Shown in pieces: positions 5,549-58,259 of a stretch of DNA of 64,000 nucleotides. The stretch is taken from NCBI RefSeq assembly GCF_036588685.1, contig NC_086375.1, positions 26,040,001-26,104,000 of the forward strand. Direction: 5' to 3'. Both the position numbers and the translations under genes were made by a program. Source of the DNA: Mytilus trossulus (lineage: Eukaryota). Each line of letters begins with the position of its first letter. Positions within the stretch are counted from its first letter, which is position 1. The notes under the pieces are model-generated. The model had not been told where the DNA came from and did no database searches. It saw only the letters and a list, made by a program, of their open reading frames with translations.

Positions 5549-8500
5549 ATGGCTACCTTAACACTGACTTTGTTGAAATTTATACCTGTTTTCATTATAC
5601 TATTCATAATAAAGAAACTGTTTGGATTATATCAAAGAAGAAAGGCACTACAAAGAGCATTGAAGGATTTCCCTGGTCCGGCCCCACATTGGTTATGGGG
5701 CAACATGAAGGAGGTAAGTTAAATACCGAATACACCGTCATAAATTTTTACATTACAGTTAGATTATCGTGTAGAATATGGCATTATTTATATTGAAATA
5801 GAAGGAGATTCCTAATGAGATATCTCCACAGGAAACCCAAAGATGTAGAATTAAACAATTGTAGGTCACTGCGATTGAGACAATGGCCTTCGGCAATGAG
5901 CAAAACCTATACTGCATAAATTATAAATGGCTTTCTGCCGTTCCTATTTGATATACTGAGTACCGAATTTTAAAATTCCATTCGTTCATCTTGGTCTATA
6001 AATTTGATTTCTTAATTTTGTGTCGTCCTAATTATGCATAAAATATGTCCCAATGGACGACCAGACGAAACATTCAAATATGACAGAGTTTTTGGTGTTC
6101 AACTCTTCCCCTTAGACATTCATAAAGTATGGGAGGTATAAAGAAATCTTACTAGAAAAATCAGTATTGAAAAAATGCATTATTGAATAATATTGAAACT
6201 ATAACAATAAAAAAAATAAAAAGAACGAAAAAACATTGCACCTACTGAAGCCGGTCTTAAACCATGCCTCCTTTCATTGTACAAGTGACGGCTGTATAGC
6301 AGCATCCCTACAAGTGCAGAAAAAACATGACCAAGTGCAGCGATATATGTAATGAATGAAACGAATACATTATGCTATGTTCTACTAACAACAGTGCATG
6401 CATAGCGGGTAAAATCTCTATTGAGGGATATGAGAAATAGCTTGTAAAAATGTTAAACACTATGTTTTAGCTGACCGGAGATTACCAAGGGATGCTTCGG
6501 ACTGTAGAGTATGCCAAGAAATACAATGGAGCATTCCCTGTATGGATGGGACCAACAGATGCCTTCTTGATGACTGTCAATCCTTCCACTGTTAAGTACG
6601 TCTTATCAGGAACAGGTACTGTGCACACTCAAGACGTTTTCGTATGTTATGGGGTTGTTTTGCCTTTTTTCTTCTTTTTGTTATGTGTTTTATGTTGTTC
6701 TTGTTTCTTTTTATTTCATGTTTGACTATTTTTGGTTTACTATTTTAAGTATTTTTTTGTGTTACTTTTTGTTTCTTATCTTATAATGATTCTGTAATTT
6801 CATTTTTTTTCAAAGTAAAATAGTATAGTTGTATGTAAAGTAGATTTAAACAGTTTAGATATTTTTTTCTTTTTAGTAAGCACTCATTTATGTCATACAA
6901 ATATGTCCAGATAATCTAATATCATGGTCTTTTGGCTTCATTGCAGTTTGTTTTCATAAAGCCATTTATTTTTACATGTTCTTCATGTAGATGTTAATAT
7001 CTCTGTATGAATAACAGCATGTCTGTCTTTTGAATCTATGTTTTGAGAGGACTTGGACGTGTATTCTCAGAACGATTTTCGATTTTATGCTTTGTCTTTT
7101 CATTCATGAAATGTAATACTAGTAGTAAAAAAACGAAATTAATCGTGTGTTTCATATCTTACAGATCCTAAAGATGAATTTTCTTATGCACTGATGAGGC
7201 CATGGATCGGTAAGTTTATGCTCAAAGAAAGTTAAACGCGAGGGAAGATAACGATTTTGTTTTTGGCATCACGCTTTTTATGGTCCAATTTTGAAAAAGT
7301 TCATGATGAAAGCTAGTGATATTATACATGGACATTGGAAAATCAAATTCCCTTTATTCTAAAGCCATAATTTCATTAAGGCCAGTGGTCTTTTTACTTA
7401 TACATTGTTATTAATGATATTATTTTCTTGGCAAAAATGTTTGCGTAAGTTTTATCCAACCCAAATGATTTTCCTCAGGCCAGTAACAAGTATTTTAAGT
7501 AGTGACCTTTTTTAGTTGATTCAACATGCTCATCTTTTTTTGTCTATTTTTTTTGTATTCAAAGACTTGAAAGAGAGACGTTTATTAAGTGACAGGTTTG
7601 GCTAGCTTTAAAACTAGGTTTAGTCCACCAATTTTAATGCCTGTACCAAGTCAGGATTATGACAGTTGTTGTCCATTCGTTTGGTGTGTTTGGGTTTTTG
7701 ATTTTGCTATTTGATTAGGAACTTTCGTTTTGAAATTTCCTCGGAAATCAATAATTTTGTAATTTTACTTTTCTCTTTTTACAAGGTGATGGTTTATTAC
7801 TGAGTGGTGGCAAGAAATGGGATAGAAATAGACGTCTTATGACACCAGCATTCCATCAAGATATCCTCAAGAATTATGTGAAGATATTTTATGATTCATC
7901 TAAAATATTGATAGTAAGTATACCGCCATTTTAAACAAACATTTTTTCAGCGACAATTAAAAACATTTTCTATGAGTATAAATATTTTTCTCATGACAAT
8001 AGATATGATTATATAAATATAAGAAGATGTGATAAGAGTGCCAAATGAGACAACTCTTCATCTAAGTCACAATTTGTAAAAGTAAACCGTTATTGGTCAA
8101 AGTACGGTCTTTAAAAGGGAGCGTTGGCTCACACCGAATAGGAAGCTATAAGGTTCCCAAAAGTATAAAAATTAGTTATTTTTGTTTTCCTCGTTTTAGA
8201 TGCATACTTCACATAACACATATAAAATAAGTCTGTTTGATTGCATACATGTAAGTCTTAAGTGGAAAGAAGTCTAAACAAATTTAACATTTCTTACATT
8301 ATACCAGATAACCTTTACTCAACTGGAAATCAAAATGTTGAACCTGACTATATCCTTTTGTGCCAGTTTCTCGTAAGAAACTACAATATAGGTTGATTTT
8401 TTATTCATTAAGTACTCGTAAGAAACTACAATAAAGGTTGATTTTTTTAGTGATTAAGTATGAAACACTTTTCACTGGACGTTAATTTAACAACAGACTT

Positions 8501-11500
8501 TCGATCATTTCTATTCAGAAAGAAGAATTCTAACTCGAGTCATTCATAAGTTAATTGTGCATTTGAAGAAAAGCATTTAGTTTGGTATTATTAAAGATAG
8601 GTAAGATATAAATGAATGAGACACAACCCCAACAACACAGAAAAAGTAAACGACTTATGTATACGTGTATGCATGCAAACTTGCTATAATTATGCGGTAT
8701 GGATTTGTATAATTGTTGGATGCCGTACGGTGACCTATAGTTGCTAACATCCTTTGAACTTTAATATAGTTGTCTCATTTGGAAATCATAATACATCTTC
8801 ATATTGTATATTCACATGGATCAAAATATTTATTTCAGGAAAAATGGAGGGAAACGACAGAACCAGTAGAAACTTTTCATTACATCAGTCTTCTTACCTT
8901 GGACAGTATGATGAAATGTCTGTTTGGCTACAACAGTGACTGTCAAAACGAAAGGTACGACAAAGTTAATCCGTTTCCCACCCAAGGAAAGTAAAACTCA
9001 TGTACAGTTTTGCGAATGTATGATACCGTCTTCGAAGTCCCCTTTCCTATAAATATCGCTAACATAGCTATTTATTTACAATACATCTTTGGCGTTCAAA
9101 TGTTCAAGTTTTAGCGTTAACGTTCTTGATGATTTTGTGTCTAAAGAATCCATTCGAACGCGCGAAATTAACAACGTGTTAGCACTGCTGGTGGACTGTT
9201 AATCCCCAAGGTTTCGATTACTAAAATAATTTATAACCTATTTTGTTTCTACAATTACCACAAGCTGTCCTGATCGTTAAAAACTTTTAAAATTTAAGGT
9301 TTAAGATGAAGGTAAATCCAGAAAAGGTGCTTCGAAGCACACACTTTATAATGTGTTATTTTTATTTACCACCAAATATTTCCCCGTTCAAAAGTTGCTG
9401 CATAGATTTCCCTTTATATTAGAGCCTTTTGTTTTTATCGATCAAGAAAGGCTATTAAAATTCCTGCAAAAGCAGTTTTGATCTCATCAGTTTGGTATAT
9501 ATGAATATAGAATTGAACATAAATATAATGATAGAATACCTTTATTTCTAGTACAAGACATCCATATATACAAGGAGTGTATGATGTGTCAGAGCTTATA
9601 GTAAAACGGATAACAAATCCATTTCACCACAACCCATTTATCTACAAATTTACAGAAAATGGGTAAGTAAGGAATTTTGAATACCTTTACAGTCGATTGC
9701 ATTGAGTGTGTATGTAAGGGTAAAATCTTTGGTTAGCTTGCTTGCTTACTGAACAGTGAAGTCATTATTAGGTTATGTAAACTATCCTCCTTTAATTAAG
9801 AGTAGATAAGCCGACAGATAACAAATCAATTTCATTATATGTCTGCATGACTAGTCTACCTCGAAAGGAGAATAGTATACCTTACATTATAATGTCTTCA
9901 CGGTTCAGATAACAAGCAATCTAACCTAAGATATTACCTTTTAGAGATACACGCTCAATGCAATCGGCTGTAAAAAGGCTTAGAAGAATTTCAGTTCTGA
10001 TCCCATGTACGTTATTTGTCCTGGTCGGTTAAGGACCTTTTGTACTTTCATATACATATCATCTTCTATACTTTCCCGTCTGTTTACAATGGGGAAACAT
10101 TTACCAACGTTCATGTCAACCCATCACTGCGTTAGCATCTATTGATTATGGTTTTGACGTTGTTTTGATCTTTCCATTCGTATGATAATGAACATTCAAA
10201 TAAATACATTTGTATTTCGAGCCTCTTAAAAATCACAAAAATACTAAGCTCCGAGGAAAATTCAAAACGGAAAATCCAATACATTAAACGGATGCTTAAA
10301 AACTATCATATTCCTGACTTGGTACAGGCACTATTTTCTTATCTAGAATATGGTGGATTAAACCTAGTTTTTAAGCTAGCTAAACCTGTCACTTGTATAA
10401 TATCTTTTCGTGAGTTTGACTCAAATTCGTGGAAAAAGTTTCATATGGATAAAAGATTTATGTTTTTAGTGGAAAGATGAAATGTTGACCTTTTCTTTAT
10501 TTCAGAAAGAAATTTTACAAAGCTTGTGAAGTAATTCATGAACATTCATCGAAAATAATATCTGACAGAAAAAAGCTGTTACGAACGGAGGAAAAAGGCA
10601 GTAGAAACACAGACTTCTTGGATATTCTTATAAATTCGAGGGTAAGATTCATTTACAACAACAAAAATGTAGAGTAAGGTATCATATGTTTAATTGGCTT
10701 ATATTTCAAAGTGAAATTATTTGAAGAAGTACTGTTAAAAAGCAGTGGAAATTTCGAACTAATGTGGAAAACGGAAATAATGTGTCGTATACTTGTAAAA
10801 TCTAGTTTCTAAAAAATAGAGAGCAATATGACTTTAATTGACAATATGTATACAGACATTTTGGCACCAATTAAGAGTTATCGTATAGATATTTTGTTAT
10901 CATCTGATTCAGTTCGCGATTTATTGTTACCGATTCTTAGTATTTTAAAGTGAACGTAAAAGAAGGGCTCATTGTTAAATGCGCATTCATAGAATCAAAT
11001 TAATTTTGGTGTCTGGTAGTTTTTTTGTTTCTTTATTATTTGATTTGTTTGTTATTGCTGACGTTTGCGATGCAGATTTATATCTTAAAATCTCGCACTG
11101 ATTATTTGTTACGCTAAATGGTGCATTAACGGTATCTTTGTCACTAATAAGTTCTATATGATATAAGTCAGTATAGCCCTTTAATTCAGTAGTTCTTGTT
11201 GTTTGTTGCTGTGCAACATATTTGTTTTTCGTTCATTTCTGTGTACACAAGTTAGTCCTTTAGTTTTCTCATTAAAATTGTATAAATCATTTCGGGGACC
11301 TTTTGTAGCTGACTATGCGGTATGGGCTTTGTTCATTGTTGACCTATAGTTGTAAATGTCATTGTCATTTGTTCTGTTGTGGAGAGCTGTTTCAATTGCA
11401 AATATTGAACATCTTTTTACATCATTGTCTTTTGATTTATCATTTTGATTTTAATAACTTTCCTACTTTCGGCCAAAAGTAAAAGTTTCCGGAATCCTAT

Positions 11501-14500
11501 GCTTTTCTGAATTTTCGTTTTAGCATTATATGAGGGTTTAGATGGGGTTAAATTATTAAAGAATAATGCCCTTAAAAATGAAGATTAGAGAATAACGGGC
11601 TAAAAAAATAAAGATTAGAGAAAAAAGGGGTTATTTTTTTAAAGATTAGAGATAAAAGGGGTTATTTTTTTGAAGATTAGAGAAAAAAGGGGTTATTTTT
11701 TGAAGATTAGAGAAAAAAGGGATTTGACAACAAGAGATGAATGATTGAGAGTTTATTATTATTCTGACTTTATTATAAACCTAGCAATTATTTGTTTGTA
11801 CAGGACGAGGATGGAAACGGAATGTCTGATACAGAAATACAAGATGAAGTCGATACATTTATGTTTGAGGGTCACGACTCTACCGCTAGCACTTTGTCAT
11901 GGTGTCTCTACAACCTCGCTAAACATCCAGAATACCAAGAAAGAATCAGAGAAGAAGTGAAAGAACAATGGGGAAACAAGGATGAAATTACCTGGTAAAT
12001 TGTTTTTAATAATATCTACATCACTGAACAGCTAAAATTGACGAGCCTTTTGGCTGAAACAACCTGATTAGTTTGGTTGGAAATTACTGAAGTGCGTTAT
12101 AAAGTAGCTGTTTATTTTTTGTTATTTAGATATGTCCATTCCTTTAAATAAGGACTCTGTCTTATATAGAACGACTAATATAAAAAAGAAGATGTGGTAT
12201 GATTGCCAATGAGACAACTATTCACAAAAGACCAAAATGACACAAAAATTAACAAGAATAGGTCACCGTACGGCCTTCAACAATGAGCAAAGCCCATACC
12301 GCATATAGTCAGCTATAAAAGGCCCCGATAAGACAATGTAAAACAATTCAAGCGAGAAAACTAACGGCCTCATTTATGTAAAAAAATGAACGAAAAACAA
12401 ATATGTAACACATAAACAAACGACAACCACTGAGTTACATAAATAAATGTGGCGGGGTTAAACATGTTAGCGGGATCCCAACCCTCCTCCTAACCTGGGA
12501 CAGTGGTATAACAGTACAGCATAAGAACGAACTATAAAAATCAGTTGAAAAAGGCTTAACTCATCAGATAGACAAAAAATAAAAGTGGACGTGGCCGGGT
12601 ACTTATACATCCCGACACAAAAAGACACAATGAACAGATCTGAGAGTACTCGCAGTTATCTGACAGCTAGTTCAAAGCCATTAACAACTAATAAAAAATC
12701 ATGCCTCTAAGACTTAGCAATCAATCCGTACACATCCAACATACAATGGATTTAATGCCTGCGTCAAACTGTCCCAAATTTGACTCCACATGAAAACATC
12801 ATAAAGAAAAGGTTCAAATTTGAATGTGGTTGAAAAAAACATCGGGCCATCCATGATCATTCTTACGTCACTGCATGAATGAACACAAGTTGATTTCTCA
12901 GTGCCTCAGATTCCGGCAGCAACTTCATAAGCGGTAGCCAAATATTTGGCATTTCTCATTCATAAAATTGCCGAATTACCTTGTGAAGGAACATTTTCGT
13001 GTTGAATCCGTATGCCCATTTTATATCCCTCCGTAAAACCATCGTGTATGTAGAACTTCGTATGTCATTGCCTGACCTTTTGTAGGCATCGAACTAGTTA
13101 ATTTCATTTCAATTTTACCTATAGTAGGAAAGAAAGGTTATGCCGTATCAATTCAACATGCAAATATGTATAAAGATAGATACTATATGAATTTATAACC
13201 AGTTAATTTCATTTTTTCTAATGAAGGGAAGACATCAACAAACTGGAGTATACTTTGATGTGTGTGAAAGAAAGTATGAGAATGTTTGCACCAGTACCAA
13301 ATATATCTCGGTGTACAGAGAAAGATATACTATTACCCGATGGTCGGCTGATCCCAGCAGGTATTTGTTCTAGTATTTTGTATAATTTGTATAATTTGTA
13401 TTACAGCCGATTACTTTGAGTGTGTAGATAAAGGTAATATATTTGGTTAGCTTGCTTGCTACCTGAACCGTGAATCATTATTAGGATAAGTAAACTACCC
13501 TCCTTTAAGAGAAGACTACTTCGAAAGAAGGGTAGTATACCTTACCTAATAATGGCTTCACGGTTCAGCTACCAAGCAAGCTAACCAAATATATTATCTT
13601 TAGCTATACACTCAATGCAATCGGCCGTAATAGATTCAGCTCGGTTCCTTGGCTTACCTAGTCATTTGTTGTCGCTCTTTGACTTATAAGTATATCATTA
13701 TGTATACGGGCTTCCCAAATATTGTTGCTCTTTGACTTATAGGTATATACTCATGTTTACTGGATAAAAATAAAACGCACAATTAAATGAAGATGGATAC
13801 AAATAAGCTAGCCTCACATTTACTATTATTTCATATCTTTCTTTTGACATTAGTAAATACATGACTTGCATTTTGTGTATTGCCCTAAGATTTCACATCG
13901 TTGTTTTTTTACTTTATTTTAGGGGTTCGGATGGGAGTATCTATTTATGCTCTTCAAAGAAACCCGGATGTTTGGAAAGATCCAGAGGTACAGTTGTTAT
14001 AGAATAGATTTTGTAAAATGACTTTAACTTGCTGTTTTTTGTTCTTTGCAGATATTCACATCTTAAATTCACTAACACATGACATAACTTAAATATAACT
14101 GCAAAAATTATTGTAGTTTTTTCTTTATCATTTCAGATATATGACCCTTCAAGATTCTCATCAGAAAATAAAGTTTCAGCTTTACAATTCATGGCATTTT
14201 CAATGGGTCCAAGGTAAGGATCAGTTAACATGGTCTCTCGTCTGCATTAGGTCACGTGCATTGTTGAGTCAACAATTTCCTTTTTAAAACTGAAAATATA
14301 AAAAACAATATTTAGAAAAGATTGTCGCTTGAAAATAACACCACGCTAACATACAGTACATGCATTCCATTTAACTGTTTGTGGTTTAGTTAAATTGTGA
14401 AGCAATTGATGCATATGAAATAAATCGGACCGAAATCCATTGGTATATCATTGGAATATATTTTTGATGTAGTAGACAAATGTGTTCGATTAATATTTTT

Positions 14501-15499
14501 TTTAATGTATTGTACTCTTAACATGCATTTAAAATTGACTGCTGGACTTTCAAGCAAGACTAAAATGTGTTTTTCGACGTAATCGGTATAGTTTCGGTTT
14601 GTGCTCTTTGAACTTAAGGACGCTTTACTATGGCAACAGAATACGCACGCTCGAAAATCCTTTCTGTGATTGGACAAAATGCTGTCATGGTGGGTGATTT
14701 GGTTGTGTTTGAAAAAACGTCTCGCCAATTATATTGTGATGGAAAGCAAGTGAAAAACTATGAATATTTGAACTAGATCTTACAAAGATTTATATTTTTA
14801 TTAAAATAATTGATTCTCCAATAGCTCTTTGCAACCATGACAGCTGTTTATTCGGGACAATTATATAATTTTTAATGTAAACTTTGTTGTACGAACGTAC
14901 ATGACTTTTAGAACGCACCTACGCATGTGAGATATCATCACAATATTCTTATATATTATTCCCTTAATATAACCAGACTTAGTAAAGAATTTCTTGTTGT
15001 TACATTCAGATGGAAATTTAAGTCATTGTGCTTCTGAAGGTTATCGAAATGATAGTTTTAAACATATACTCATCGTCGGATATATTTTTTAAAGATAGTT
15101 CTTGTTTTTATATATATTGCTTGGATGTTTTTGTTTATTCTTGAAAAAACAAAGTATAATACACACGACAGCAACATCATAACAAAACAAAAACCCAAAT
15201 AAAAACAAAACATTTAATCGGAATTTTAGATAAACATTGAACTCTAAATTGTCATTTTTCGTTCTTTTGGGATTTCATCCTATTGAAGTTCACTCTAGGT
15301 CCACTTTTATCAACTTTTACTGATTTATTTTAGAAACTGTATTGGAATGCAGTTTGCGTTAACCCAGATAAAAGTAATTATTCCAATGATAGTCCGTAAT
15401 TTCCACTTGGATTTGGATCCTGAGCGACCAGCAGAACCTGAGAGTATGTTGATATTAAGGAGCAAGAATGGATTGTATCTTAAAGCGACACCAATATAA
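5549..15499 (+). CDS. Cytochrome P450, CYP4 clan (CYP4F/4A-like), 12 coding exons, 492 aa
   Basis: GT-AG exons: 5549-5713, 6471-6615, 7165-7209, 7786-7913, 8839-8954, 9552-9662, 10506-10641, 11804-11994, 13227-13360, 13923-13987, 14137-14213, 15334-15499 (1479 nt, open frame). Motifs: N-terminal TM anchor, [12 protein letters not shown] hinge, [14 protein letters not shown]-helix, [14 protein letters not shown]-helix, KESMR (ExxR), DPSRF, FSMGPRNCIG heme-Cys. AATAAA signals follow near 15640-15695. Confidence 0.95.
9687..9973. mobile_element. Fold-back (palindromic) MITE, TTACAG...CTGTAA family
   Basis: Long inverted arms (ttacagtcgattgcattgagtgtgta...tacacgctcaatgcaatcggctgtaa). Relatives at 13401-13630, 27093-27466 and a partial copy at about 19538-19690. 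Confidence 0.8.
11580..11722. repeat. Minisatellite, about 30-bp unit (aagattagagaaaaaaggggttattttttt), about 5 copies
   Basis: Directly visible tandem copies in the CYP4 intron just upstream of exon 8. Confidence 0.85.
12180..12760. mobile_element. Abundant interspersed non-autonomous repeat (aagaagatgtggtatgattgccaatgagacaac family)
   Basis: A long inverted copy lies at about 58860-59415. Partial copies lie near 8020, 11180-11400, 21680, 38130-38310 and 59630. Confidence 0.7.
13401..13630. mobile_element. Fold-back MITE (same family as 9687-9973)
   Basis: Palindromic arms ttacagccgatt...aatcggccgtaa. Confidence 0.8.
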
Positions 15500-30455: not shown

Positions 30456-32804
30456 TTAAACTTTAAAAGAATGCACACTATATCCGTTAGAGAACATGAA
30501 ACGAAGAATAAAAAGTACGAGTATAAAGATTATAAATCTTTTCAACCATTTGATCCATCCGTCATATAATCCTTCTAGTTCTCCGGCTCCAGATTGCCTT
30601 GTTTTCATTGGATAGTATGTATTCTCCTGAACATTCTCGATTGCCTTTCGCGCTCCGTCCCATTTTCCTGGACCATCCAGTCTCCATTGTGGTGGTGTAG
30701 CAGGTCCGAAGTACAATTTATACCAAAGCTTTGGATCTGTGAAAAAGTGCTTTAGAAGGTTTGGTTTGCAACCTATTTTCGATGAGATAGTATCTAAGTA
30801 GGCAATGAAATATACCTGAAGACTATACCGTGGTGAATCGACATACTTCTTCTTCAAAAACTGTCGCCTTTCCTCAACAACTCTACGACGTTCAGATGGG
30901 CTTGGTAAACTGCATTTACCCGAGAACACCATACTCGCCCAGCGCGCTTGAATTTCTAGAATTGGCGCGAGACTGCCAAATGGTTGAACAAGACCAACTA
31001 CTGCTAAAGTGCTCGGCTCCATGTCTACAGGAAATACAAGTTCATATAAGTACGAAAAATGGTTATCTACTTCAATGACGGAATTATCTAAGAAAGGAAA
31101 GCTGTATGTAAATCCGGTTGCCAAGACAACGACATCGATATTTTCAACCATAGAACCATCATCGAAAATGACTCCGTTCTCTGTGAACTTCTCCACGTTC
31201 GACTTGATGCTGATAGCGCCATACAATATACGGTTTGGTAAATCATCGCTAACCGTGACAACTCCGCCATCAAACCGGAAGTTCGGAGCCAGTCCATAGT
31301 TTGAATGTTTGTATTTGTAGTTGATTTTGTTGTAATGGATAGGTCTCATGATATCCCATGGTAAACTCTGGCTATATCTGTTTAATGCTATGTGATCAAA
31401 CGGAACGCCGTACTCGCCAGCTCTTTGCTGAATGTAAGAACCCCTTCTGGTGCTGACATAAACCTTGAAAAAAACCCAATATAAATCAATTATATAGTTA
31501 TAAACAAACAGAAAAATATACATTTTTTTTCATTTCATTTTAAAATTGATAAGATTTCAATTATTTTCACATTGCTTTTTAAAAACATGTTATGCGTCAT
31601 GAAATGAATTGTTCGTTCTTTTTACTTTTTGTGGTGTGCTGAATATTGAATATAACGTGTGAAATTTACCTCTAAATTGAACACCTTTTTTTTTAGCAGC
31701 ATAAGATATGCTGTGCCAAGAAAATATTTGTGTTGGGGGTACTTGTTAGCCTCTTTGTACCAATTAAAGTTAAACGTAAAAGAGCAAAGATTCGTAGAGG
31801 TGTAGAGACTACTTATTCTGTTTGTTTTTTTCAAAGAAACCCTGCAATATGTCTGGCTTTTAAAGTAGATAAGCTTTATTTACCAAATTTGTTATTCTAT
31901 ATTTTGTCTAAATTTCTGTTCGTTTTTACTCGCACTCGCCGAGGAACAATATTCGAGCGCGAAGCCATGTGTTCCACATCACTTTCTTTATATGTATTTC
32001 CTGTTAAAACCATTTCCTACACCCTACCTATCCTGATGCCCGACACTACGTTCCAGGTATTAGCTAAAAGCCATACTCTCTCTTATATTGGTATATGGGT
32101 AACATACTGAATATTGCGATCGGGAACCAGTCTACACCCTACCATAAGATATTCTACCATTAAAGAAACTATAATAAATGAAAACTAACGTGTTCAGCAT
32201 GTCTACTTAGTTCACATGCAACGTCTGCTCCAGAATTCCCAATACCAACAACCAGTATGCGTTTGTCTTCGTATCCATGGAAAGTCTTGTAGTCACGTGT
32301 ATGCATCACTTTACCTTTGAACCTGTTCAAGCCGGGAAATGTTGGTTTGTTTGGTTCGTGCAAATGTCCATTGCATACCATTACAAAGTCAAATAGTTCT
32401 GTAGAGTTCTTTCCGGATTTCGTGTTCTGTGTTCGGACTTTCCATCTGTTGTCGTCACTTTTCTCGATTTTTTCTACTAATGTTTGAAATCTTATACAGC
32501 TCATCAGATCAAAATGATCAGCATAGAGGTTTAAATACTTCTTAAAATGTTTATGATCCATAAAATTTGGGAATTCTTTAGGGATAGGAAAATCGCTATA
32601 ACATGAAATTTCTTTGCTGGTGTTGATACTGCAAGAATTGTATAAACTTGTGTCGCCCTCTTTCGTTGTTGTATGATAGTTCCATAGACCTCCAATGTCA
32701 GTATCTTTCTCGTAGCAGACGACATCAAAACCTTCCTCCAAACTATTTTTTATTGACGTAAGGCCTGCTACCCCTGCGCCTACTACACATACCCGTTTTG
32801 TCAT
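30456..32804 (-). CDS. Flavin-containing monooxygenase (class B, FMO5-like), copy 2, 2 coding exons, 540 aa
   Basis: Exons 32804-32190 (cag|ATG...GAACAC|gttagt) and 31463-30456 (aag|GTT...TAA). Motifs: GAGVAG, FKGKVMHTRDY, GIGNSG, VLATGF, C-terminal TM segment FIIFILVLFILRFMF. Intron position matches copy 1. Confidence 0.95.
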
Positions 32805-44233: not shown

Positions 44234-45427
44234 TCATTGCCTTTGTAGAGTATAGTACTGGAGTATCCCACTCTTATCGTCAGCAATGCCAATACAATGT
44301 TTAACAACGAAGTTTTCCATCAAAGAAAAGTTAGCAGACGATAGCAAGACCGGTGTATGTCCAAATATTACCATGTATCCACCTTTCTTAACTGTCGGCA
44401 AAAGAGCACCAATGAGTTGTTCTGCTTCGGTGGACGTAACAACTTCAGAATTGAGAAAACGAATAAAGACAACATCAGCTGACGCTGGAGATATTTTTGG
44501 TTCCATGGCGTTCCCACAGTGTACCTCATCGACCCGAGTTTTAGAAAATCCTACCATTTGCTTGCTGAGATCTTGTCCAATGGTATAACTCTCGGGAAAT
44601 GCCTTTTTCAAAGTTGACAGGAAGACGCCAGTTGAGCAGGCCGGATCAAACAGTACCAACTTTTGAGTGCTCAGAGTTTTTAGAAATTTAATGGTGTACG
44701 CTCTTATCCTTTCTTCCCCACATCCAAGCATTACGTCAAACGCATCATCAACAACCCAACCTTCGGAAGGTGAGCATAATTCCTTCCTTGTCGATTCCCG
44801 CAGAAGAGAAAATGGAAAAACAATCTCTACGTTTTCTATTTTATGGTCAGTGATGTCTTTCATTATTTTGAGCTTTTCACCGTTCTTCAACGGATGATAA
44901 AATACATTGACGAATGTTTCAGTTATCCTTTGGTCGGAGAATACGCCTAATATCATACCCGCGGAAATAAAGCTGCAGTGGATCTCTGGAATCCTATTTT
45001 GTATCCACAAGTCCGAGAGGATCTTTCTTCCCACTAGTCTATATTTCGATGGACCTATATTAAATGTTAAGAAGAATACACTTTGCGGAAGGGCCCAGTG
45101 CTTCTCAGTAAGTCGCTCCAACTTTCTATTATTGACTTCTGTCCAGTTAACATCGTCAACAATTTTGCAAGAGTTTGTAATGTGGAAGGTAACATAGCGA
45201 TCTAGTTCACTTTTAAGAAGCTGCAAGGTACTCCTGTCTGACGGGTGTTCTCCCGACTGGGATAAAGATTCTTCTAATAATGCCTGTGCATTTTTCAACT
45301 GTCCTTCCGCAAGAAGTCGCCGAATTTGTAAAAATTTCTCTCGGAGATTATCATCGTACATTCCTTTGAAGATCCCATCGTAGCTTTTAATAGCATCTGT
45401 CAAAACGGGTGCCTTCTTGTCGGCCAT
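44234..45427 (-). CDS. Intronless class I SAM-dependent transferase, probable 3-amino-3-carboxypropyl transferase (Nat/isonocardicin synthase-like, ACT), 397 aa
   Basis: Single ORF from ATG 45427 (MADKKAP) to TGA 44234. C-terminal Rossmann fold with LFDPACSTG (motif I), GQDLS (motif II), ADVVFIRFLN and KKGGYMVIFGHTPVL. Minus-strand AATAAA at 44195-44190. The family assignment is from recalled motif resemblance, not a database search. Confidence 0.8.
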   Translation of the reverse strand: MADKKAPVLTDAIKSYDGIFKGMYDDNLREKFLQIRRLLAEGQLKNAQALLEESLSQSGEHPSDRSTLQLLKSELDRYVTFHITNSCKIVDDVNWTEVNNRKLERLTEKHWALPQSVFFLTFNIGPSKYRLVGRKILSDLWIQNRIPEIHCSFISAGMILGVFSDQRITETFVNVFYHPLKNGEKLKIMKDITDHKIENVEIVFPFSLLRESTRKELCSPSEGWVVDDAFDVMLGCGEERIRAYTIKFLKTLSTQKLVLFDPACSTGVFLSTLKKAFPESYTIGQDLSKQMVGFSKTRVDEVHCGNAMEPKISPASADVVFIRFLNSEVVTSTEAEQLIGALLPTVKKGGYMVIFGHTPVLLSSANFSLMENFVVKHCIGIADDKSGILQYYTLQRQ

Positions 45428-47130: not shown

Positions 47131-47364
47131 CATTGGTAGAAAGTAGCATCTGTAAAACAAATCGGGGATTTCGCTCACTTGTATATTTTTCTTCTAAATA
47201 CATGTATTAGAAAGGAAAATTCTCAGTAAAAATTCATAGATACTCATTAGATACTCATTTTCAAATAGTTTTTAGTGTGAGATTATTGGTAAACACAAAA
47301 ATTAGGAGGGAACTACAGATAAATAATTTGAAAACTTTAAAAACACAAAATAAACAAATTCTAA

Positions 47365-47839: not shown

Positions 47840-50800
47840 ATGGCTGATTACCACCAGATAGTGTCTTTCTGTTGTATATTCTGTTTAAAACTAATTTGTT
47901 ATATCATTAATGTGGTAAGTTTTTTTAACATTTAAACTATAAAATACGTGTCACAAAAATACAAAATACTTATGTTTACATGCTTATACATTTGTTTAGT
48001 TCTTATGAAATAATATGCGTAGGCCAGAACAACTTTATTCCTGTTTTCACGATTTCTTGTCACGAACTTTTTCTGTGCACTGTAAAGGAATGCTTTTCTT
48101 TTCGCCTACTGATTGCTTTATTTGCTTATACTACGAATGCACATTTATGTAGTTCTATGAACACGTTATGCTAAAGGTAAATATTCTCTGCTGTTATCCG
48201 CCAAAGACAGGTCCTGTGTTTTATATCTGTTTTTTATTTAGAAAAGGCGTGGGCGGGTAGGTGCTACAACACTAATTCGCCTGATTATTAGTTATTCAAG
48301 GGAAATCGTCTTCTGAAAGGCGTGTCTCACTGTCTCTCCTCAACCTAAATTTTCCACTGCCAAATGAGTGCAAAAAGTTATCAAATCTAAATGTTATCTT
48401 TTGAATGTGCAGCATATAAATCTGTTCACGGTTAAAATTTAAGGTATAAAAGAACACACCAGTTGTCTTGTTGTTTGTTACTGTTTGTCATGTTTAATAT
48501 ACACGAAAACAAACAATAATTTACTAATATTTTATAGTTTTTTAAGGTGGTACCAAACACTACAGGGGGGTAACTCTGTAAAATCAGCTAAACGTTTTAA
48601 TTACGTTGTGTTGTTAAAAGAATATTAAGCTTCTCAATGATCAAAATTAGTGTTTGTCAAACTGCTATATAACCAGTCACGTAATTTTTCTGATAAAATG
48701 GTTGGTTCAAATTTTTTGAAATTTTAATATTTTTGTCAAATGGTCAAAGTTAATACTTTGTAAAAATTTTATGAACATTAAACGAGCCAAATCAATTTTA
48801 GTTAAAGTGTTGAGTACCACTTTAATATAAACGAAAACAAACACTATATATATAATGTACTAATATTTTATAGTTTCTTTAGTAGAAAAGTATGTTGAAG
48901 AGACCAAAAACATGTACATATGATATAAAGCATACGGTCAATATAGAATGATTCGGCAAAAATGTACATGAACATTTGCTGTAGAGAACCAGGTTAAAGT
49001 TTCTATTGATATGTCTGAATCAACACACATTTTGCTTTCGTTAAAAGTTTTGACTTTCTCTCTTCTTTTCTAGGTTCCATGGTTAAGTAATGGTTCCGTT
49101 TCAAAGCCGTCCTGGATTATACAGTATCTGTTACAGAAAACGTTTGAAGATGACAAGTTGAAAAAGTTAGAATTTCTTACACAAATTTACCACAAGCAAG
49201 GTTTATTTCGTTTTGACAGTAAAATCTATATTTTCAACCAGAAGCTAGCACAAACAGCTATCAACAAGTTGGAAAAAGGAGCAGAAAATTACTTAGACAA
49301 CTCTCCACTTAAAGATACATTTTTAGGTTCATCTCAGAAAAGTCCCGAAACAAGACGTGCTATCGCATCCTTGTTCAGAAAAACATCTATAGAAGAAAGG
49401 GCATCTTCGATGACAGAAGATATTAAAAAGATGTGTTTGAAAATGAAGCAGCAATCACTTAGATCTGTAAATATAACTCATTGGTCGCTACGTCTAGCGT
49501 TAGACATTGTCGGTCACGTGCTTTTGCAGTTAGATCTGAATGCTTTGGACGGCGAACAAGATGAATTATTAGAGTGTATGGTGACAATTCTCCATAGGTG
49601 TTATGCTTTAAATGAAATTTCAACAGACTCTGACGAATTTAAGCAAGCAAACGAGGGACTTGATCGGATTACTTCAAATATACTCAAAGATGCTCTAGAA
49701 AAAGACGATACTACAATACAGAAACGGCTGGTTGTTCAATTGCACGAGGCCTGTGGATTTGAAGAAGTGAGTATTTCCCTGTAGTTATAAAATCGCATAG
49801 TTTTCACAGGGACTTTCTATACTCCCTGTTTTTTACTCCCAAGTTCATCTGTATTTGTGTGTGTAAAGGAAGAATAGACAAGGGAAAGAATACTACACAA
49901 ACACACAACTTTAAATTTTATTATGTCAAGTCAAATATTGAAAACCTACCAGCAAGTCTAGAATAAACAAATAGATTTCTTTTGCCTTTCAATATTGAAA
50001 CACTTCATTAATCATCTTATTTTATAATGTAACAAATAGGCTCCTTTTTATTATTTCAGGCTAAGGACAATATGAAGCTATTTCTGATGGCTGGAACAGA
50101 AACAACAGCTTCATCTATTCCCGTGGTGTTCTCATTGTTAACTGATAATCCTGACATTCAGGTAAGTGCTATCTTTTCGGAATTTGGTTATGGAATTAAT
50201 TTTTTTTATTGAGTATGCGACTGTCACATTTCCGTCTAACCTTGGAAGAGTTGTCTTTCCCTATGGTAAACCTGAATTTATTGACTTCTAGATGTCAATT
50301 TGCCTTTCTTTGTAGGTTGTTTGCTGTTACTTCAATTTGACGTAGATGTTATGAAAGGATTTAGGGCACTTGTGGAAATAATTAGAAATTGAAATAAAAT
50401 AGATCTTATTTAAATAAAAGTATATGTTTATAGGTGATAAAGATAGTTCCAAGTAAAATATTATATAAAGGTCAAATGATTCGTTGATATAGGAAAATAA
50501 AATAAGAAGAAAACACATAAAGAAAATAGCGAATAACAAGCATATCTTAGATGCATGATAAACAAAAATAGTACAAGTCAAGAACCTCATTAGTTATTTG
50601 GCACGCGTTTAGAAGGTTGCTAGGTCGACGGACAGATGTGTATGTCGAATTGATATTACATCCAAGGTTATAACCATATTCACAGAATGTGTAGATACTA
50701 CAGCATCATGAATATTCAGTAATATATTTAGGCACACAAGATTGTATAAATAACCAATCAAAAAGTTTAGATACGAAGATTGACGTACACAAGATATTAA

Positions 50801-53800
50801 TTAAAATTTAACAAATCTTTAATTATCAATTATAATAGAGATCGGAAATTGAAATTCTTCCAAAAATATTATTTTATTTAATTTAAGAAATAAAAGTCCA
50901 AATGCTTTTCAAAAACAAATAAATACATTTTGCATATTATGAAGCAATATAAGTTTTGGCAACACATTCCAAGAAGCTCAATCTTGTCTGGGGAACAAGA
51001 ATGTCGGGTAATGAGTAGTGACTATAAAAGCAAATATAAGTCTACTGCCCGTACATTACATTACAATCCTTGTTCCAACCAGCAAATTGAGTTGTCTTAT
51101 TTATTTCATTAAAAAGGTAAGTTATATAATGTTAATTAAAGTAATTTAATAAAATAAATTAATTGCAGATTAATAGGAAATAATTCAATAAATATAATAG
51201 GTTTAATTCGAGCAATATTTGAAACAGAAATATATTTGTTATTGTTAAATGTTATCTATATTTAATCTGTATGATTTATGCACTGTAATATTTTACGATA
51301 AAAAAGAAAAGAAACATTACATTACATTACATTACAATCCTTGTTCCAACCAGCAAATTGAGTTGTCTTATTTATTTCATTAAAAAGGGTAAGAAGGCGC
51401 GAGTCCCACTCTCGCTGCCAAGCAAGTCCACAACAACGACATGTAGTCCCCAGATGTGCAAACATCCTTCTACCGACAAGAACTGTAGAAGAACGCAGAA
51501 AACAAGAAGAGACAAATCAACAACATGTAATCAATTAAGAAACCACCAAAGACAATTCAAATACAAACATTAACAAGCGACCTCCAGGTTCAGTTTCCAA
51601 CAACAATAATACAAAACCCTTCACAACAATATGGCGGAGGACCCAAACCTTCTTTATGACAACAGAGGACGAGACGATTTAAACTACCTTATCAGGAGTA
51701 GACAGAAATTTAAAGGCCATGAGGAGACAAACAGTACCCTAAGCCAATTCATAAAAATCTACCTATGTGATGTTAGGAACGATACCATACAGGTCAATCG
51801 CCACTTGAGAATAGCGACTACAGAACCTCAATTCAGTGAGCCCGAATTTCAAAACAATCCATGACGATTCCAACAATTCTTACGGAAACAGATACAATTA
51901 GTTACCCATGCACTATTGTGACAACCCGAAGGATCAAACTAGAACAGATTTTCAAACCACACACGAACAATATTAATGTTTTCTAACAATATTTCCAATA
52001 TTATCTATGGACAATAATTTCATTTCCAACTCGTATTATTTTTGTATTCACATGTACGGTAAGACGGTTGATTTTACTTATTTTCTCTCTACTAAAACAA
52101 TGATTTAAAAAAATTAATGATAATAATAATAAAGAAAATTAAAAAGAAAATTAAAAATAAAAAAAAAATAGATAAATAAATTTTTCGTATTAAAATTTAA
52201 AGAAAGTAAATTTGAATACTTCTAACCATTTAAAAAAAAAAAAAAAAATTGTCACATCATGCAATTCAAATACAAAAGTATTATATAATCTAACTGGTAT
52301 GTACATGTATCCTTTTGAATAGTTAATTGAAATATTATAAGGTGAACGTTTAACTGAACCTGTATTTTTTAAAATCATCACGGTGACACCAATTACTGAT
52401 TTAATCTTTCAAATCGAACACTATATTTATTCTAAATGTCTTTCCTATAGTTTTTAAGTTGATATTCAGTAAACAAACCATATTTGTTTATAAAATTGCA
52501 TTACTGACCACTTGATGCTCTCATGATTCATATCTGATATACAAGTTATATTAAATTGTTTTACAAAAAGAGATGAAACAATCGAAACTTTAACTAATAT
52601 ACATCCATAATTCTCCTATATCAAGGAAATAGAATTTAAAAGTACAAAAGTACAAGTTTAAAGTATACATCAAAAGTGGAAGCAAAACTTCCCACGCTTA
52701 TTTATTATCTAAGATATAACTTAAATCGAACAATCAGGAAGATCGTACTACTGACATACTCATTTAATCTATAAACAAAATAAAGTATTCACCTTTATAA
52801 TGATGCACCTATTCCGCCAGATAACATTTTAAAAATAAATATCATTCGTTCTGGCCAATGCATTGCCAACTATCAATAATATTACAAATGTAGATACCGT
52901 TGTAAAAAAAAGGAATACATCAGAGATAATATTCGTATTTCAAATACATCTATGCGTTCTTATTGAAAGGTTTATTACAATATAACATAGCTAAACAACA
53001 AAAAAATCCTATGAATGCAGGCAGTACGAAATGATAAATTAAGTTTTATACAACGTTTTCCAACCCAATGCTAAACAAAAACAAAAACAAAATAAATTGG
53101 GAGAAGTTTTATTTCAAATTGCAGTACCAGAAGAATTACGGAATAGCATAAACATATATTAATTGCATTTCACGATAATTCTTTCCACCAAGGTGTTATA
53201 AAAAAAAAATATGAAGCTATAAAAGCTAGATATTATTGGCCTGACATGACAAGTTTACAATCACGTGACATTGTGTAAAACATGCCAGGAAGTAAAATCA
53301 AGTTAACAAAAAAATGCGAGCGCCCTTACATCCTATGCCGGTGGTAAACGTTTTTGAACGTATTCATGTCGATATCCTTGAAGGATTATGCAAATTCCGT
53401 TCTGGAAATTCATTTATCCTTATTGGTCACAGACAGTCTAAATCACTGGTCGGAGTGCTTCCCCCTGAAAAAAAACAGGAGGCGAAATATATAGCAGACG
53501 TGTAATATTAAGAAATGGTTCCCCGTTATGAACAATGAGGGAACATATTCAAATTAGCTAAGTCCTTAATAGCGTCATGCTCAATCAGAATAGGACACGG
53601 AGATCAAGTGTTGAAAAGTGTTATGACGGCATTTCAAATGACGACAGTCACCCAATCTTTAGGATACTCGCTTTTAACATGCATATCAAATTGGGGAAAG
53701 AAATGACGTAAATAAACTATTGATACTCAATTGATTCCCACACAAAAAAAAAAATGGAAAAAGCACCTTAAGATTCATTGATGAACTAATTAAATAGGTC

Positions 53801-54389
53801 AAAATTATCCATAAAACGGCTAAAGAGAATATAACAGAGGCGCAGTTATAAAAGTAAAATATATAAAGATAATAATAAAAGTAAATTATTTATAAAAAAG
53901 TTATAGTTGAAGATTTCATAATGAAAATAAATAAACAATGAAGATTCGGTCCGGTAAGAAAAAGACACCGGAACCCTAACGAATGGGCCCTTAATATAAG
54001 GTACGGGGCGTATCAAATGATACGTACAAAATTTGTGAAACTGCAGTCACATAACATGATGATACCATTAGTTTTTGCTAATAGGTTGAAACCGTACAAA
54101 GATCCACGAGATTACAGACCACAGGCTGATAATCAATCGGATCCGCGTATTGATAAAAAGATTAACACACAAAGATGAATCAGACACAAAAGTCTATTCA
54201 AAATTTGCGTCAGATCAATCAGTACAGCAATCACAGACACGTGATACGAGTATATATAAACAAAGAGATAATATTAATTTTGATAAGAAATCAGACAATA
54301 CACCTGACGGTACTAAGAATAGTAATAACGATAAATCATCTAAGAACATTTGGTTTGAAGAAACTTATTTTTTTTAAATAGAATTTATA

Positions 54390-54421
<32 letters not shown>

Positions 54422-57400
54422 CATTACTTGATACAATGGACGGAACGTTTAAGAAAAAAAAGACGATAGTGAAAATTGAGTTTTAGCTCATTCATCAAAA
54501 GAACTGTTTAAGAGGACGACTTTCAACGTAATGACAAATTACTTTCTGCCGAAAACGTTATGTTGCTTATAATTTTGAAGTTACGGATCCTAACTTCGAT
54601 AATTTATATTGTAGGTCTGGCAAGGGTAATATGAATTATGTTACTACATTTTTAGTGTACTTCTCAGTTCTGACCATCTCAATGCTTGATGAAATAGTAT
54701 AAAATTTGCAATATTAGGTCTGTTTTAGAAAAACATCAATCTGGACGCATTATGATGTGTCATTGATAAAATAGTATAATTCAAGACTACATAATATAGC
54801 AAGAAATACTTAAACTAAATCGACAAGGATATATATAAATATATTAAAGATAAGATACATTCATAACAAAAATAGACAGTGAAATGAAACTATATAAATT
54901 TATAACAGAGATCATTATAATGGTAAATAATTTGTCAAACAACTAAACATGCGTTGGTAAAGTAAAGTAAGAAGGTCAGAGATAATAACATATGTTTTGA
55001 TAGTTAATCATCACTATATATATTTTTGGCACGCGAGAGAAATCAAGATAAGATTTTTCTAAACTGGCAGTTTGCCTTCAGAAACAGGTTGAGATTTCTG
55101 AACAATCTGTCATATAGACATTAGTTTAACTTTCATAACACATCAGAATAATAATAACATACATTTATTTGATAAAGATTATATTACTGTAACAATTCTA
55201 GCACACAAAAAGGAGGGTAGAAAAATTAAAGAATTAAAAATAATAAAAATGAAAATAAATCAAATGAAGTAAAAGAAAAGAAAAAAAAAGAGTAAAAATC
55301 ATAAAAAATCTGGTGGAATTCAAACAATCAAGTCCGATCTTCCTCTATATATATATACATAAGAAAGTATTAACATGTTCAATATAAACGTTATAACAAC
55401 CACGTTGAGTTAAATTCTCTATAGTTTAAATGACAAAAAAGAGAGAGAGAATATGTTATTTTATTCACTTGCATATGGAGTACATAAGACACAGATCTTC
55501 ATATGACTTATTTTCGCGTGTTGGAGTACATCCAAAGACAGATCTCCAATATTTCGCAGGTGGACTTTTGTTCCACGGAAGAGGATCGGCATAATAATAT
55601 TATTATTTTTCATTGTGCATGCATCATACAATTTGTGTATGTATATGTATTTGTGTTTCATTTATTGCAAAAACAGTTCATAGGAAAAATTAAATAATCA
55701 CAATTAATAAGATTCAAAGATTAAAGTTAAATTCAAAACAAACATGTGAAAAAAAAATGAAATCAGGAGATTTCAAACTTAACAAGGGGGTAATGTTATG
55801 AAAGGATTTAGGGCACTTGTGGAAATAATTAGAAATTGAAATAAAATAGATCTTATTTAAACAAAAGTATATGTTTATAGGTGATAAAGATAGTTCCAAG
55901 TAAAATATTATATAAAGGTCAAATGATTCGTTGATATAGGAAAATAAAATAAGAAGAAAACACATAAAGAAAATAGCGAATAACAAGCATATCTTAGATG
56001 CATGATAAACAAAAATAGTACAAGTCAAGAACCTCATTAGTTATTTGGCACGCGTTTAGAAGGTTGCTAGGTCGACGGACAGATGTGTATGTCGAATTGA
56101 TATTACATCCAAGGTTATAACCATATTCACAGAATGTGTAGATACTACAGCATCATGAATATTCAGTAATATATTTAGGCACACAAGATTGTATAAATAA
56201 CCAATCAAAAAGTTTAGATACGAAGATTGACGTACACAAGATATTAATTAAAATTTAACAAATCTTTAATTATCAATTATAATAGAGATCGGAAATTGAA
56301 ATTCTTCCAAAAATATTATTTTATTTAATTTAAGAAATAAAAGTCCAAATGCTTTTCAAAAACAAATAAATACATTTTGCATATTATGAAGCAATATAAG
56401 TTTTGGCAACACATTCCAAGAAGCTCAATCTTGTCTGGGGAACAAGAATGTCGGGTAATGAGTAGTGACTATAAAAGCAAATATAAGTCTACTGCCCGTA
56501 CATTACATTACAATCCTTGTTCCAACCAGCAAATTGAGTTGTCTTATTTATTTCATTAAAAAGGTAAGTTATATAATGTTAATTAAAGTAATTTAATAAA
56601 ATAAATTAATTGCAGATTAATAGGAAATAATTCAATAAATATAATAGGTTTAATTCGAGCAATATTTGAAACAGAAATATATTTGTTATTGTTAAATGTT
56701 ATCTATATTTAATCTGTATGATTTATGCACTGTAATATTTTACGATAAAAAAGAAAAGAAACATTACATTACATTACATTACAATCCTTGTTCCAACCAG
56801 CAAATTGAGTTGTCTTATTTATTTCATTAAAAAGGGTAAGAAGGCGCGAGTCCCACTCTCGCTGCCAAGCAAGTCCACAACAACGACATGTAGTCCCCAG
56901 ATGTGCAAACATCCTTCTACCGACAAGAACTGTAGAAGAACGCAGAAAACAAGAAGAGACAAATCAACAACATGTAATCAATTAAGAAACCACCAAAGAC
57001 AATTCAAATACAAACATTAACAAGCGACCTCCAGGTTCAGTTTCCAACAACAATAATACAAAACCCTTCACAACATAGATCGCCAATACACCTCCTTTAT
57101 GTATTTGGTCCATACTGTTTCACACAAGAGAACGCCAAATTGTATACTCATAAATGTTCAATTATATCTTACTAGTATTTATTTTTTTAAATTTTGATCG
57201 TCAAATTTAAAGTTTTCCTACAAATTGACCAAACAAAAGAAAACATTCCAGCATACAGCAATATCAGAGGGCTGTAAGATTCGCCAAAATTTAACACAAT
57301 CTACCATTAATGAAACATTTTTTTTTCGAAGGAAGAACTAAGAGATGAAGCAATAGATCGCTGGTCTGAAATGATGGCGGAACCTACCACGTCTTTACCA

Positions 57401-58259
57401 AAAATAGAAAGTATGATTAAAGAGGTCCTAAGACTTTATCCAATAGCACCTTTCATTAGCAGACAAAACAATGTCCCTGTAAATCTGGGAAACATACACT
57501 TGGATGAACATGTAAGTTTCAACATATATAATGCAGTATATTTGTAAACCTTAGCTTCAACAGAGAATCAAGTTTCTGCAATGCTAGCTACTTTTTTTGT
57601 TATTCTAGGAATAATGGTTAATCCAATGGAAAACGCACATAAATGTTATTCGCCATTTACTTCAAGATTAAAATCAATATTTTTTTCTTGCAGTAATTGA
57701 TATAAAAACTGCGTCTGCATATTGATCGAGTCCGAATGGCATCAATACGTGTAACATTTGTTAATCAGAGGTCTATTTGACACACCAAAAACCTCTAGAA
57801 AAAATGTGTTATATCTTTATAGATTATCAAAGAATTATTACATAACACAAACATGTTCCATATTTATTTAGATAAAATTAACTTGGATTATATAATATTT
57901 CTAGTATTTGCTCATTTTTTGACAATATAATTTCATTTCAGAGTGATGTCGTTATTTTCACATGGGGAATTCACAGATCTCCGTACCTGTGGAAAGATTC
58001 AAAAGTATTTAAACCGTTCCGCTTTCTTGGAGAGGAAGCTTTGCATTCAAACATGTATATACCATTTGGAGCAGGATCTCGAGTGTGTATTGGACAACAT
58101 ATGGCGGTTCTGGAACTGCGTTTAGCTATAGCAATCTTACTTCATACTTTTACATTTTCAAAGAACCAATCCACACCAGACTTAAAGTTTGTTGTTGACT
58201 GGGCCCATGCTGTTGTGCACCCAGATAAAGATATGATGTTTACTTTAGAGAATGTTTAA
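47840..58259 (+). CDS. Divergent cytochrome P450, 5 exons, 455 aa (family not assignable by eye)
   Basis: Exons 47840-47914 (MADYHQIVSFCCIFCLKLICYIINV|gtaagt), 49074-49766, 50060-50161 (LFLMAGTETT), 57332-57511 (KEVLRLYP) and 57942-58259 (FKPFRF, PFGAGSRVCIG). Total 1368 nt, open frame, all introns phase 0 and GT-AG. Confidence 0.88.
48546..48821. mobile_element. Kolobok-like MITE (TTAA TSD) in P450 intron 1
   Basis: ttaa|ggtggtaccaaacac...gtgttgagtaccact|ttaa. Confidence 0.7.
50347..57075 (+). mobile_element. Non-autonomous Gypsy-type LTR retrotransposon (6729 bp) in intron 3 of the divergent P450
   Basis: 1282-bp LTRs at 50347-51628 and 55794-57075 (TGTT...AACA). TSD TAGA at 50343-50346 and 57076-57079. 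PBS-like TGGCGGAGG at 51632 and PPT AACAAGGGGG before the 3' LTR. Decayed integrase remnants (YYWP, CKTCQ, FERIHVDIL) at about 53100-53700. Confidence 0.93.

What the first reader, a model, noticed from the sequence alone, without database searches (positions are those of the whole stretch)
47840..58259. Short, highly divergent P450 with all phase-0 introns, head-to-head with the transferase
Seen: 455 aa. It keeps AGTETT, ExLR, PxRF and FGxGxRxCxG but lacks the WxxxR C-helix tryptophan (QKSPETRR) and a clear proline-rich hinge. It has a Cys-rich N-terminal anchor on its own 75-nt exon and one 693-nt exon, and all four introns are phase 0. This structure is unrelated to the neighbouring CYP4, so it is not a local duplicate. 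Inference: a pathway-dedicated orphan P450 (tyrosinol beta-hydroxylase or oxime/nitrile-forming), possibly of non-animal origin with later intron gain.
Basis: partly seen in the sequence, partly recalled or inferred. Interest (0 to 1): 0.75.

Follow-up and report, generated by a model that had tools for sequence, protein, structure and literature searches.

The report
Known mussel bursatellin-cluster P450, activity untested
This is a real, spliced mussel cytochrome P450 gene beside a SAM-dependent transferase and two flavin monooxygenases, most likely the already published P450 of the bursatellin/oxazinin gene cluster, and it is predicted, but not shown, to add the side-chain hydroxyl group to these tyrosine-derived mollusc metabolites.

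Summary
The gene is real: five exons, 455 aa, four GT-AG phase-0 introns, each joined in public transcript-like contigs. It lies head-to-head with an isonocardicin-synthase-like transferase (ACT), with two FMOs upstream. That layout matches the bur-ox cluster of Mytilus published in 2025 (PMC11869996), which already predicts this P450 to be the tyrosinol hydroxylase and calls it bacteria-like. My literature searches found no assay of it. Orthologues occur in bivalves and gastropods (44-93% identity). Additions to the paper: the N-terminal helix is real and spliced in, but amphipathic; the family forms its own clade (100/99) with four unnamed distant proteins, outside clans 2, 3, 4 and the sampled bacteria; bacterial origin is neither shown nor rejected (AU p=0.21). 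An invariant DWxHxVxH motif marks the predicted substrate pocket. Verdict: already known gene, open function; beta-hydroxylase about 60%, nitrile step about 22%.

The parts
47840..47914 (+). P450 exon 1 (25 aa), hydrophobic amphipathic N-terminal helix
   Evidence: joint in 3 of 4 runs; helix 2-25 in the model of P0001; same exon end in L081
49074..49766 (+). P450 exon 2 (231 aa): hinge, B-C loop, C helix without Trp, F-G region
   Evidence: split by two extra introns in L092
50060..50161 (+). P450 exon 3 (34 aa): I helix with AGTETT (Glu270, Thr271)
57332..57511 (+). P450 exon 4 (60 aa): K helix EVLR and the IAPFISR segment
57942..58259 (+). P450 exon 5 (105 aa + stop): PFRF, haem Cys399, family motif DWxHxVxH
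44234..45427 (-). Single-coding-exon ACT (aminocarboxypropyl-transferase, isonocardicin-synthase-like), 397 aa
   Evidence: orthologues named isonocardicin synthase-like; contigs cover it
30456..32804 (-). Flavin monooxygenase, two coding exons (32804-32190, 31463-30456), 540 aa
22660..24813 (-). Flavin monooxygenase, two coding exons (24813-24184, 23715-22660), 561 aa
50347..57075 (.). LTR-type insertion filling most of P450 intron 3; not part of the enzyme
5549..15499 (+). Ordinary clan-4 P450, 12 exons, my reconstruction; comparison gene, probably not part of the pathway

Best explanation
The gene encodes a spliced 455-aa cytochrome P450 that is most likely the p450 of the published bur-ox cluster and is predicted to hydroxylate the benzylic (beta) carbon of an N-formyl-tyrosinol intermediate on the way to bursatellin and oxazinins. 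Published and assayed by others: the NRPS reductase domain makes tyrosinols, and ACT adds the aminocarboxypropyl group to the phenol. Shown here: gene structure, splicing, P450 motifs and predicted fold, linkage to act and two fmo genes, and conservation across bivalves and gastropods. Inferred: it sits on a membrane through its amphipathic N-terminal helix, takes electrons from a host reductase (CPR or adrenodoxin, not determined), activates O2 with Glu270/Thr271 and the Cys399-bound haem, and holds a polar substrate with the invariant Asp436/His439/His443; the FMOs would then turn the amino-acid arm into the oxime and nitrile.
For: Gene order act + p450 + two fmos matches the paper's description. 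Linkage outside Mytilus: Tegillarca locus tags KUTeg_012993 (P450) and KUTeg_012996 (ACT); Potamilus CHS0354_024259 and _024261 on a contig of the same length, 420,547; Pinctada both on a 67.9-Mb contig. Glu270 is invariant in 21 of 21 and position 271 is Thr in 20 of 21, as in ordinary monooxygenases. Predicted substrate-contact regions are more conserved than the protein overall: 0.82-0.92 against 0.67. The model is a complete P450 fold (pLDDT 87; VIA Z 36.1, rmsd 3.1 over 400 residues to CYP46A1, tied with BM3). By elimination (general enzymology, recalled): FMOs oxidise heteroatoms, not benzylic C-H, so the P450 is the one clustered enzyme fit for the hydroxyl; an FMO making an oxime from an amino acid has precedent in fern FOS1 (PMC7486406, abstract).
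Against: No assay found in the literature searches, and the paper itself says the oxidase roles are undetermined. I saw no NRPS in the window by reading ORF lists (not a profile search). I could not match accessions with the paper, because its supplement was unreadable. The paper describes its P450 as globular without an N-terminal membrane segment, whereas this one has a hydrophobic helix. In Mizuhopecten, Argopecten, Haliotis asinina and Dreissena the listed P450 and ACT records give different contig lengths, so linkage is not universal or involves other paralogues. A hydroxylase outside the cluster could do the step.
Confidence: 0.6

Rival explanations
1. The P450 belongs to bur-ox but acts on the amino-acid arm: it N-oxidises and decarboxylates the homoserine ether to the oxime, or dehydrates an FMO-made oxime to the nitrile, possibly as well as hydroxylating.
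For: Amino acid to aldoxime is P450 (CYP79) chemistry in seed plants (PMC7486406 abstract). It sits head-to-head with ACT, whose product carries that arm. Invariant Asp436, His439 and His443 lie around the C-terminal hairpin (strands 433-436 and 441-444 in the model), where other P450s line the pocket (recalled); they could bind an amino acid or act as acid. The paper allows this role.
Against: Two FMOs are on hand for N-oxidation; the hydroxyl would then lack a clustered enzyme; the I helix is that of a standard monooxygenase; the family does not group with the two plant clan-71 rows sampled.
Confidence: 0.22
2. The P450 is a later bur-ox tailoring enzyme, for example for the oxidation that builds the oxazinin morpholinone ring.
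For: Mussels accumulate oxazinins rather than bursatellin. A Mytilus paralogue at 76-77% identity exists (P0002) and could split the labour.
Against: Orthologues occur in gastropods too; no direct evidence for this step.
Confidence: 0.08
3. The gene is an unrelated, conserved P450 for another endogenous substrate that merely lies near act.
For: Five distant relatives with the same motif exist outside the mollusc clade, with no known link to bur-ox. Animal clusters are often interspersed with unrelated genes (PMC12833800, passage).
Against: Close linkage to act in Mytilus, Tegillarca and Potamilus; the paper reports conserved synteny.
Confidence: 0.1

Closest known systems
bur-ox p450 of Mytilus (Venugopalan and Schmidt 2025, PMC11869996)
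   Same: Position next to act, two fmo genes in the cluster, Streptomyces enzymes among best non-mollusc matches (top solved-structure hit CYP184A1 of S. avermitilis), presence across bivalves and gastropods. Very probably the same gene.
   Different: The paper calls it globular and bacteria-like. Here it has a spliced-in amphipathic N-terminal helix, and the tree does not place it among the sampled bacteria. Five database models (P0007, P0011, P0012, P0020, P0021) lack that helix, which may explain the paper's wording (inference).
Streptomyces CYP184A1 and similar long bacterial P450s (ApyO, CYP170 models)
   Same: Best sequence hit among solved structures (96.9 bits); the top NCBIfam models are bacterial (109.5 bits against a cut-off of 525). 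That library holds only prokaryotic families.
   Different: Match mostly limited to residues 255-423; about 30% identity; no DWxHxVxH motif; separate 100/96 clade. With a mollusc-only profile, bacterial-type (164 bits), clan-4 (162) and clan-3 (160) domains tie.
Animal clans 3 and 4 (CYP3A, CYP4)
   Same: Same fold and core motifs; NCBI auto-names such as 'CYP4Z1-like', '3A28-like' and 'CYP17-like' are given to orthologues.
   Different: 23.5% identity to a fish clan-3 protein over 451 columns and 17% to the neighbouring CYP4; outside both clades; no intron shared with the CYP4; the auto-names disagree with one another.
Nocardicin cluster (Nat transferase with a P450; P450 role recalled, from no call)
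   Same: An ACT together with a P450 in an NRPS pathway.
   Different: Only 2 of 80 bacterial ACT loci carry a P450 match in the fetched flanks (up to 10 kb a side, some shorter), both weak (31.6 and 22.5 bits); no sign that this gene pair came over together.

Membership tests
Cytochrome P450 superfamily | Haem-binding FxxGxRxCxG with axial Cys | tested here: met
   FGAGSRVCIG, Cys399; PF00067 E 9.5e-24 on exon 5
Cytochrome P450 superfamily | K-helix ExxR, I-helix AGxET and PxRF | tested here: met
Cytochrome P450 superfamily | P450 fold | tested here: met
   AlphaFold model of the 92.5%-identical P0001: TM up to 0.76, Z 36.1
Cytochrome P450 superfamily | Haem-thiolate spectrum and turnover | not testable with these tools
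   needs protein
bur-ox cluster p450 | Adjacent to an isonocardicin-synthase-like act gene | tested here: met
   2412 nt, head-to-head
bur-ox cluster p450 | Two fmo genes in the cluster | tested here: met
bur-ox cluster p450 | fmt-atr NRPS gene in the cluster | tested here: inconclusive
   none seen in the window's ORF lists; no genome held to look further
bur-ox cluster p450 | Best non-mollusc matches from Streptomyces | tested here: inconclusive
   true among solved structures; in the large libraries unnamed distant relatives score higher, and bacteria tie with clans 3 and 4
bur-ox cluster p450 | No N-terminal transmembrane segment (paper's prediction) | tested here: inconclusive
   hydropathy 2.35 over 19 residues but hydrophobic moment 1.07, against 0.18-0.60 in six controls; no topology predictor on hand
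bur-ox cluster p450 | Same accession or sequence as in the paper | not testable with these tools
   supplement unreadable
Animal CYP clan 4 (including the neighbouring gene) | Nests in the clan-4 clade; shares intron positions | tested here: not met
   family plus the window's CYP4 rejected, AU p=0.00025
Animal CYP clans 2 and 3 | Nests in the clade | tested here: not met
   both are separate 100/99 clades; a sister link to clan 3 had SH-aLRT 88 in the quick tree only. Clan labels of unnamed rows rest on recalled motifs and named anchors.
Other animal clans (mito, 7, 16, 19, 20, 26, 46, 51, 74) | Nests in the clade | not tested
   no animal reference of these clans was in my trees; CYP46A1 ties for best structural match
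Bacteria-derived (horizontally transferred) P450 | Nests within or is sister to bacterial P450s | tested here: inconclusive
   not in the free tree; forced grouping with 12 bacterial-type rows not rejected, p=0.206

The most novel reading that the evidence does not exclude
This is the mollusc branch of an old, unnamed, clan-level P450 lineage that also exists in other eukaryotes rather than a bacterial gene gained by molluscs, and its invariant Asp/His pocket motif lets it make the nitrile (oxime dehydration), alone or together with the hydroxylation, so that one animal P450 family supplies a rarely described nitrile-forming chemistry.
Probability: 0.15. Interest if true: 0.7.

Novelty: already known. 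Interest (0 to 1): 0.33.

Why it matters
The gene and cluster are in print, so the finding is a rediscovery. [quoted passage not shown] A verified exon model with the true N-terminus, the invariant pocket residues and the paralogue tell a biochemist what to express and mutate. The tree also weakens the BLAST-only case for bacterial origin and points to unnamed relatives that could date the lineage.

Tried and rejected
All-phase-0 as a sign of late intron gain: rejected; L092 keeps the four positions and adds phase-1 and phase-2 introns. Local duplication from the CYP4: rejected. Co-transfer of an ACT-P450 pair from bacteria: 2 of 80 loci, weak. Viral relatives: 2 loci at 33-34% identity, without the motif. 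Actinobacterial members: 29 of 401 sampled genomes match at E<=1e-35, best 163 bits, all ending by profile position 429, before the motif; at most 4 candidates were scored per genome, and the tally includes unpublished G323, G341 and G348. The motif was found in 2 of 127 loci, both animal-type (locus L121 there is from G323). The ESM Atlas gave only generic P450 clusters. The distant relatives could not be named: the cluster look-up could not be made. No genome is held. The paper reader closed before I could read the preprint or the SynBGC supplement. Earlier scan findings: none. The profile included one bacterial-type row (P0023), so its ranking of bacteria is biased and I did not use it. The first FastTree run let two long fungal-type or unnamed rows (P0088, P0111) fall among the distant relatives; they were not in the 50-row tree. 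P0328 and P0114 were missing from that set, and P0291 was too short for any tree. Searches on mollusc CYP clans gave no CYP name for this family; some searches gave background only.

Full report
Observation. Contigs from four public runs, guessed to be RNA, skip intron 1 in 3 of 4 runs, intron 2 in 3 of 4 (plus a divergent copy in two runs), and introns 3 and 4 in 4 of 4; I laid 4 of the 24 runs listed. An independent NCBI model from Mytilus californianus has the same length and start and is 92.5% identical. The gene is real and spliced as modelled. Its 10.4-kb span comes mostly from a 6.7-kb LTR-type insertion in intron 3.

Surroundings. A 397-aa single-coding-exon methyltransferase-fold gene starts 2412 nt away on the other strand. 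Its orthologues are named isonocardicin synthase-like. Two two-exon FMO genes lie at 22660-24813 and 30456-32804, and an ordinary clan-4 P450 at 5549-15499 (best of 96 candidate splicings, two acceptor choices uncertain). I saw no NRPS in the window's ORF lists.

What is known. PMC11869996 (I read parts 1-4 of 5 of the main text; no figures; supplement unreadable) describes a Mytilus cluster of nrps, act, p450 and two fmos, named bur-ox. It shows by assay that the NRPS reductase domain makes tyrosinols and that ACT adds the aminocarboxypropyl group. It says the P450 lies near ACT, is predicted globular, has Streptomyces as best non-mollusc BLAST hits, and is predicted to install the hydroxyl, while the FMOs make the nitrile; these roles were not tested. 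PMC12833800 (passages only) rediscovered the cluster computationally. Searches for bursatellin, bur-ox, oxazinin and FmtATR listed no follow-up assay; most subscription papers are outside this library. The unread supplements bear on identity of the gene and on the synteny claims. That this gene is the paper's p450 is my inference from position and similarity pattern.

Family. Orthologues occur in mussels, oysters, scallops, ark shell, pearl oyster, clams, a freshwater mussel, abalone and periwinkle, at 44-93% identity. Locus tags link P450 and ACT in Tegillarca and Potamilus, and both lie on one contig in Pinctada; in four other species the listed records show different contigs. In a mytilid-like contig (L081) all four introns are at the same places in phase 0. 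In a clam-like contig (L092) the same four are kept, one with a GC donor, and two more, in phases 1 and 2, split the long exon. So all-phase-0 and the 693-nt exon are lineage traits. The hinge Pro35 is invariant in 21 of 21 aligned orthologues, and this allele has Ser. The C-helix Trp is replaced (Ser in 18 of 21), while the Arg is kept.

N-terminus. Exon 1 is predicted as a helix (residues 2-25). In 17 family rows the most hydrophobic 19-mer has hydropathy 1.09-2.35 and hydrophobic moment 0.94-1.70, against 1.76-2.85 and 0.18-0.60 in six control P450s. It is therefore more amphipathic than a classic signal-anchor. This fits neither 'globular' nor 'standard anchor' well; surface membrane binding is my inference. 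Cys content is not conserved (none in 7 of 17).

Origin. A profile-free search of 1.84 billion representatives found no close non-mollusc family, but five unnamed proteins at 26-40% identity share a C-terminal motif DWxH[AS]VxH. The motif occurs in 32 of 270 sequences scanned: 27 of mollusc type and these five. In a 50-row IQ-TREE mixture tree the nine mollusc rows form a clade (100/99) that splits into bivalves and gastropods. With four of the distant proteins they form a larger clade (100/99), apart from clans 2, 3, 4 and a 12-row bacterial-type clade. The larger clade persists when the motif columns are dropped (SH-aLRT 98). Grouping with the neighbouring CYP4 is rejected (p=0.00025); grouping with bacteria is not (p=0.206). 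Deep branches are unresolved, P0297 is a long branch, labels of unnamed rows rest on recalled motifs, and several animal clans, notably 46 and mito, were not sampled. P0291 begins like a read-through of an acceptor at the position of intron 2, which hints at an intron-bearing eukaryote; I have no DNA for it. Bacterial ACT genes rarely have a P450 nearby (2 of 80, weak).

Mechanism. The I-helix acid-alcohol pair and haem Cys are intact, and the predicted substrate-contact regions are strongly conserved. This fits a monooxygenase with one fixed endogenous substrate. Of the three clustered oxidases only a P450 is suited to benzylic C-H hydroxylation (recalled enzymology), and FMO-made oximes have precedent (PMC7486406, abstract and outline only). 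I put beta-hydroxylation at 0.6, an oxime or nitrile role at 0.22, a later ring step at 0.08 and no role in the pathway at 0.1. The invariant Asp436, His439 and His443 around the C-terminal hairpin are the best lead to the chemistry; their place in the pocket is inferred from secondary structure and recalled P450 anatomy, as I had no coordinates.

Verdict. Observation confirmed; interpretation partly supported; gene and cluster already known; function untested. Interest 0.33.

Noticed in passing
window 50347-57075: LTR-type insertion in P450 intron 3: two 1.28-kb repeats 99.8% identical (1 mismatch, 1 gap in 1287), TG..CA ends, 4-bp target duplication, primer-site-like and polypurine stretches. 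The 4.2-kb interior has only short broken ORFs (no Pfam hit for three tested). Looks recent and non-autonomous.
   Followed up: partly
window 45845-47168: Tandem array of a 64-nt unit fills about half of the spacer between act and p450, the region of a possible shared promoter.
   Followed up: no
window 49545-50159 and 44735-45370; P0002: Runs X2 and X7 hold a second, divergent P450-like transcript piece, and X2 a divergent ACT-like contig (40 differences in 636). A Mytilus paralogue at 76% exists. A second act/p450 pair or a divergent allele is possible.
   Followed up: no
P0024 (Mizuhopecten): A scallop paralogue has lost Arg119 and has AGTEST in the I helix; possibly diverged in function.
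   Followed up: no
P0203: An ACT homologue (37%) is annotated in the rotifer Rotaria socialis, outside molluscs.
   Followed up: no
L021, L024, L027, L032, L033, L079: ACT homologues occur in endosymbiont-type bacteria (Cardinium, Amoebophilaceae, Rickettsiella) and in gut Bacilli; relevant to the donor of the animal act gene.
   Followed up: no
window 57511/57942 against 13360/13923: P450 intron 4 (phase 0) lies one aligned column from CYP4 intron 9 (phase 1): a near-intron pair, not a shared position.
   Followed up: partly
window 1-300 and 1293-1592; 39560-40086 and 43310-44031: An exact duplication at the window start and two short-period repeat arrays on the FMO side of act.
   Followed up: no
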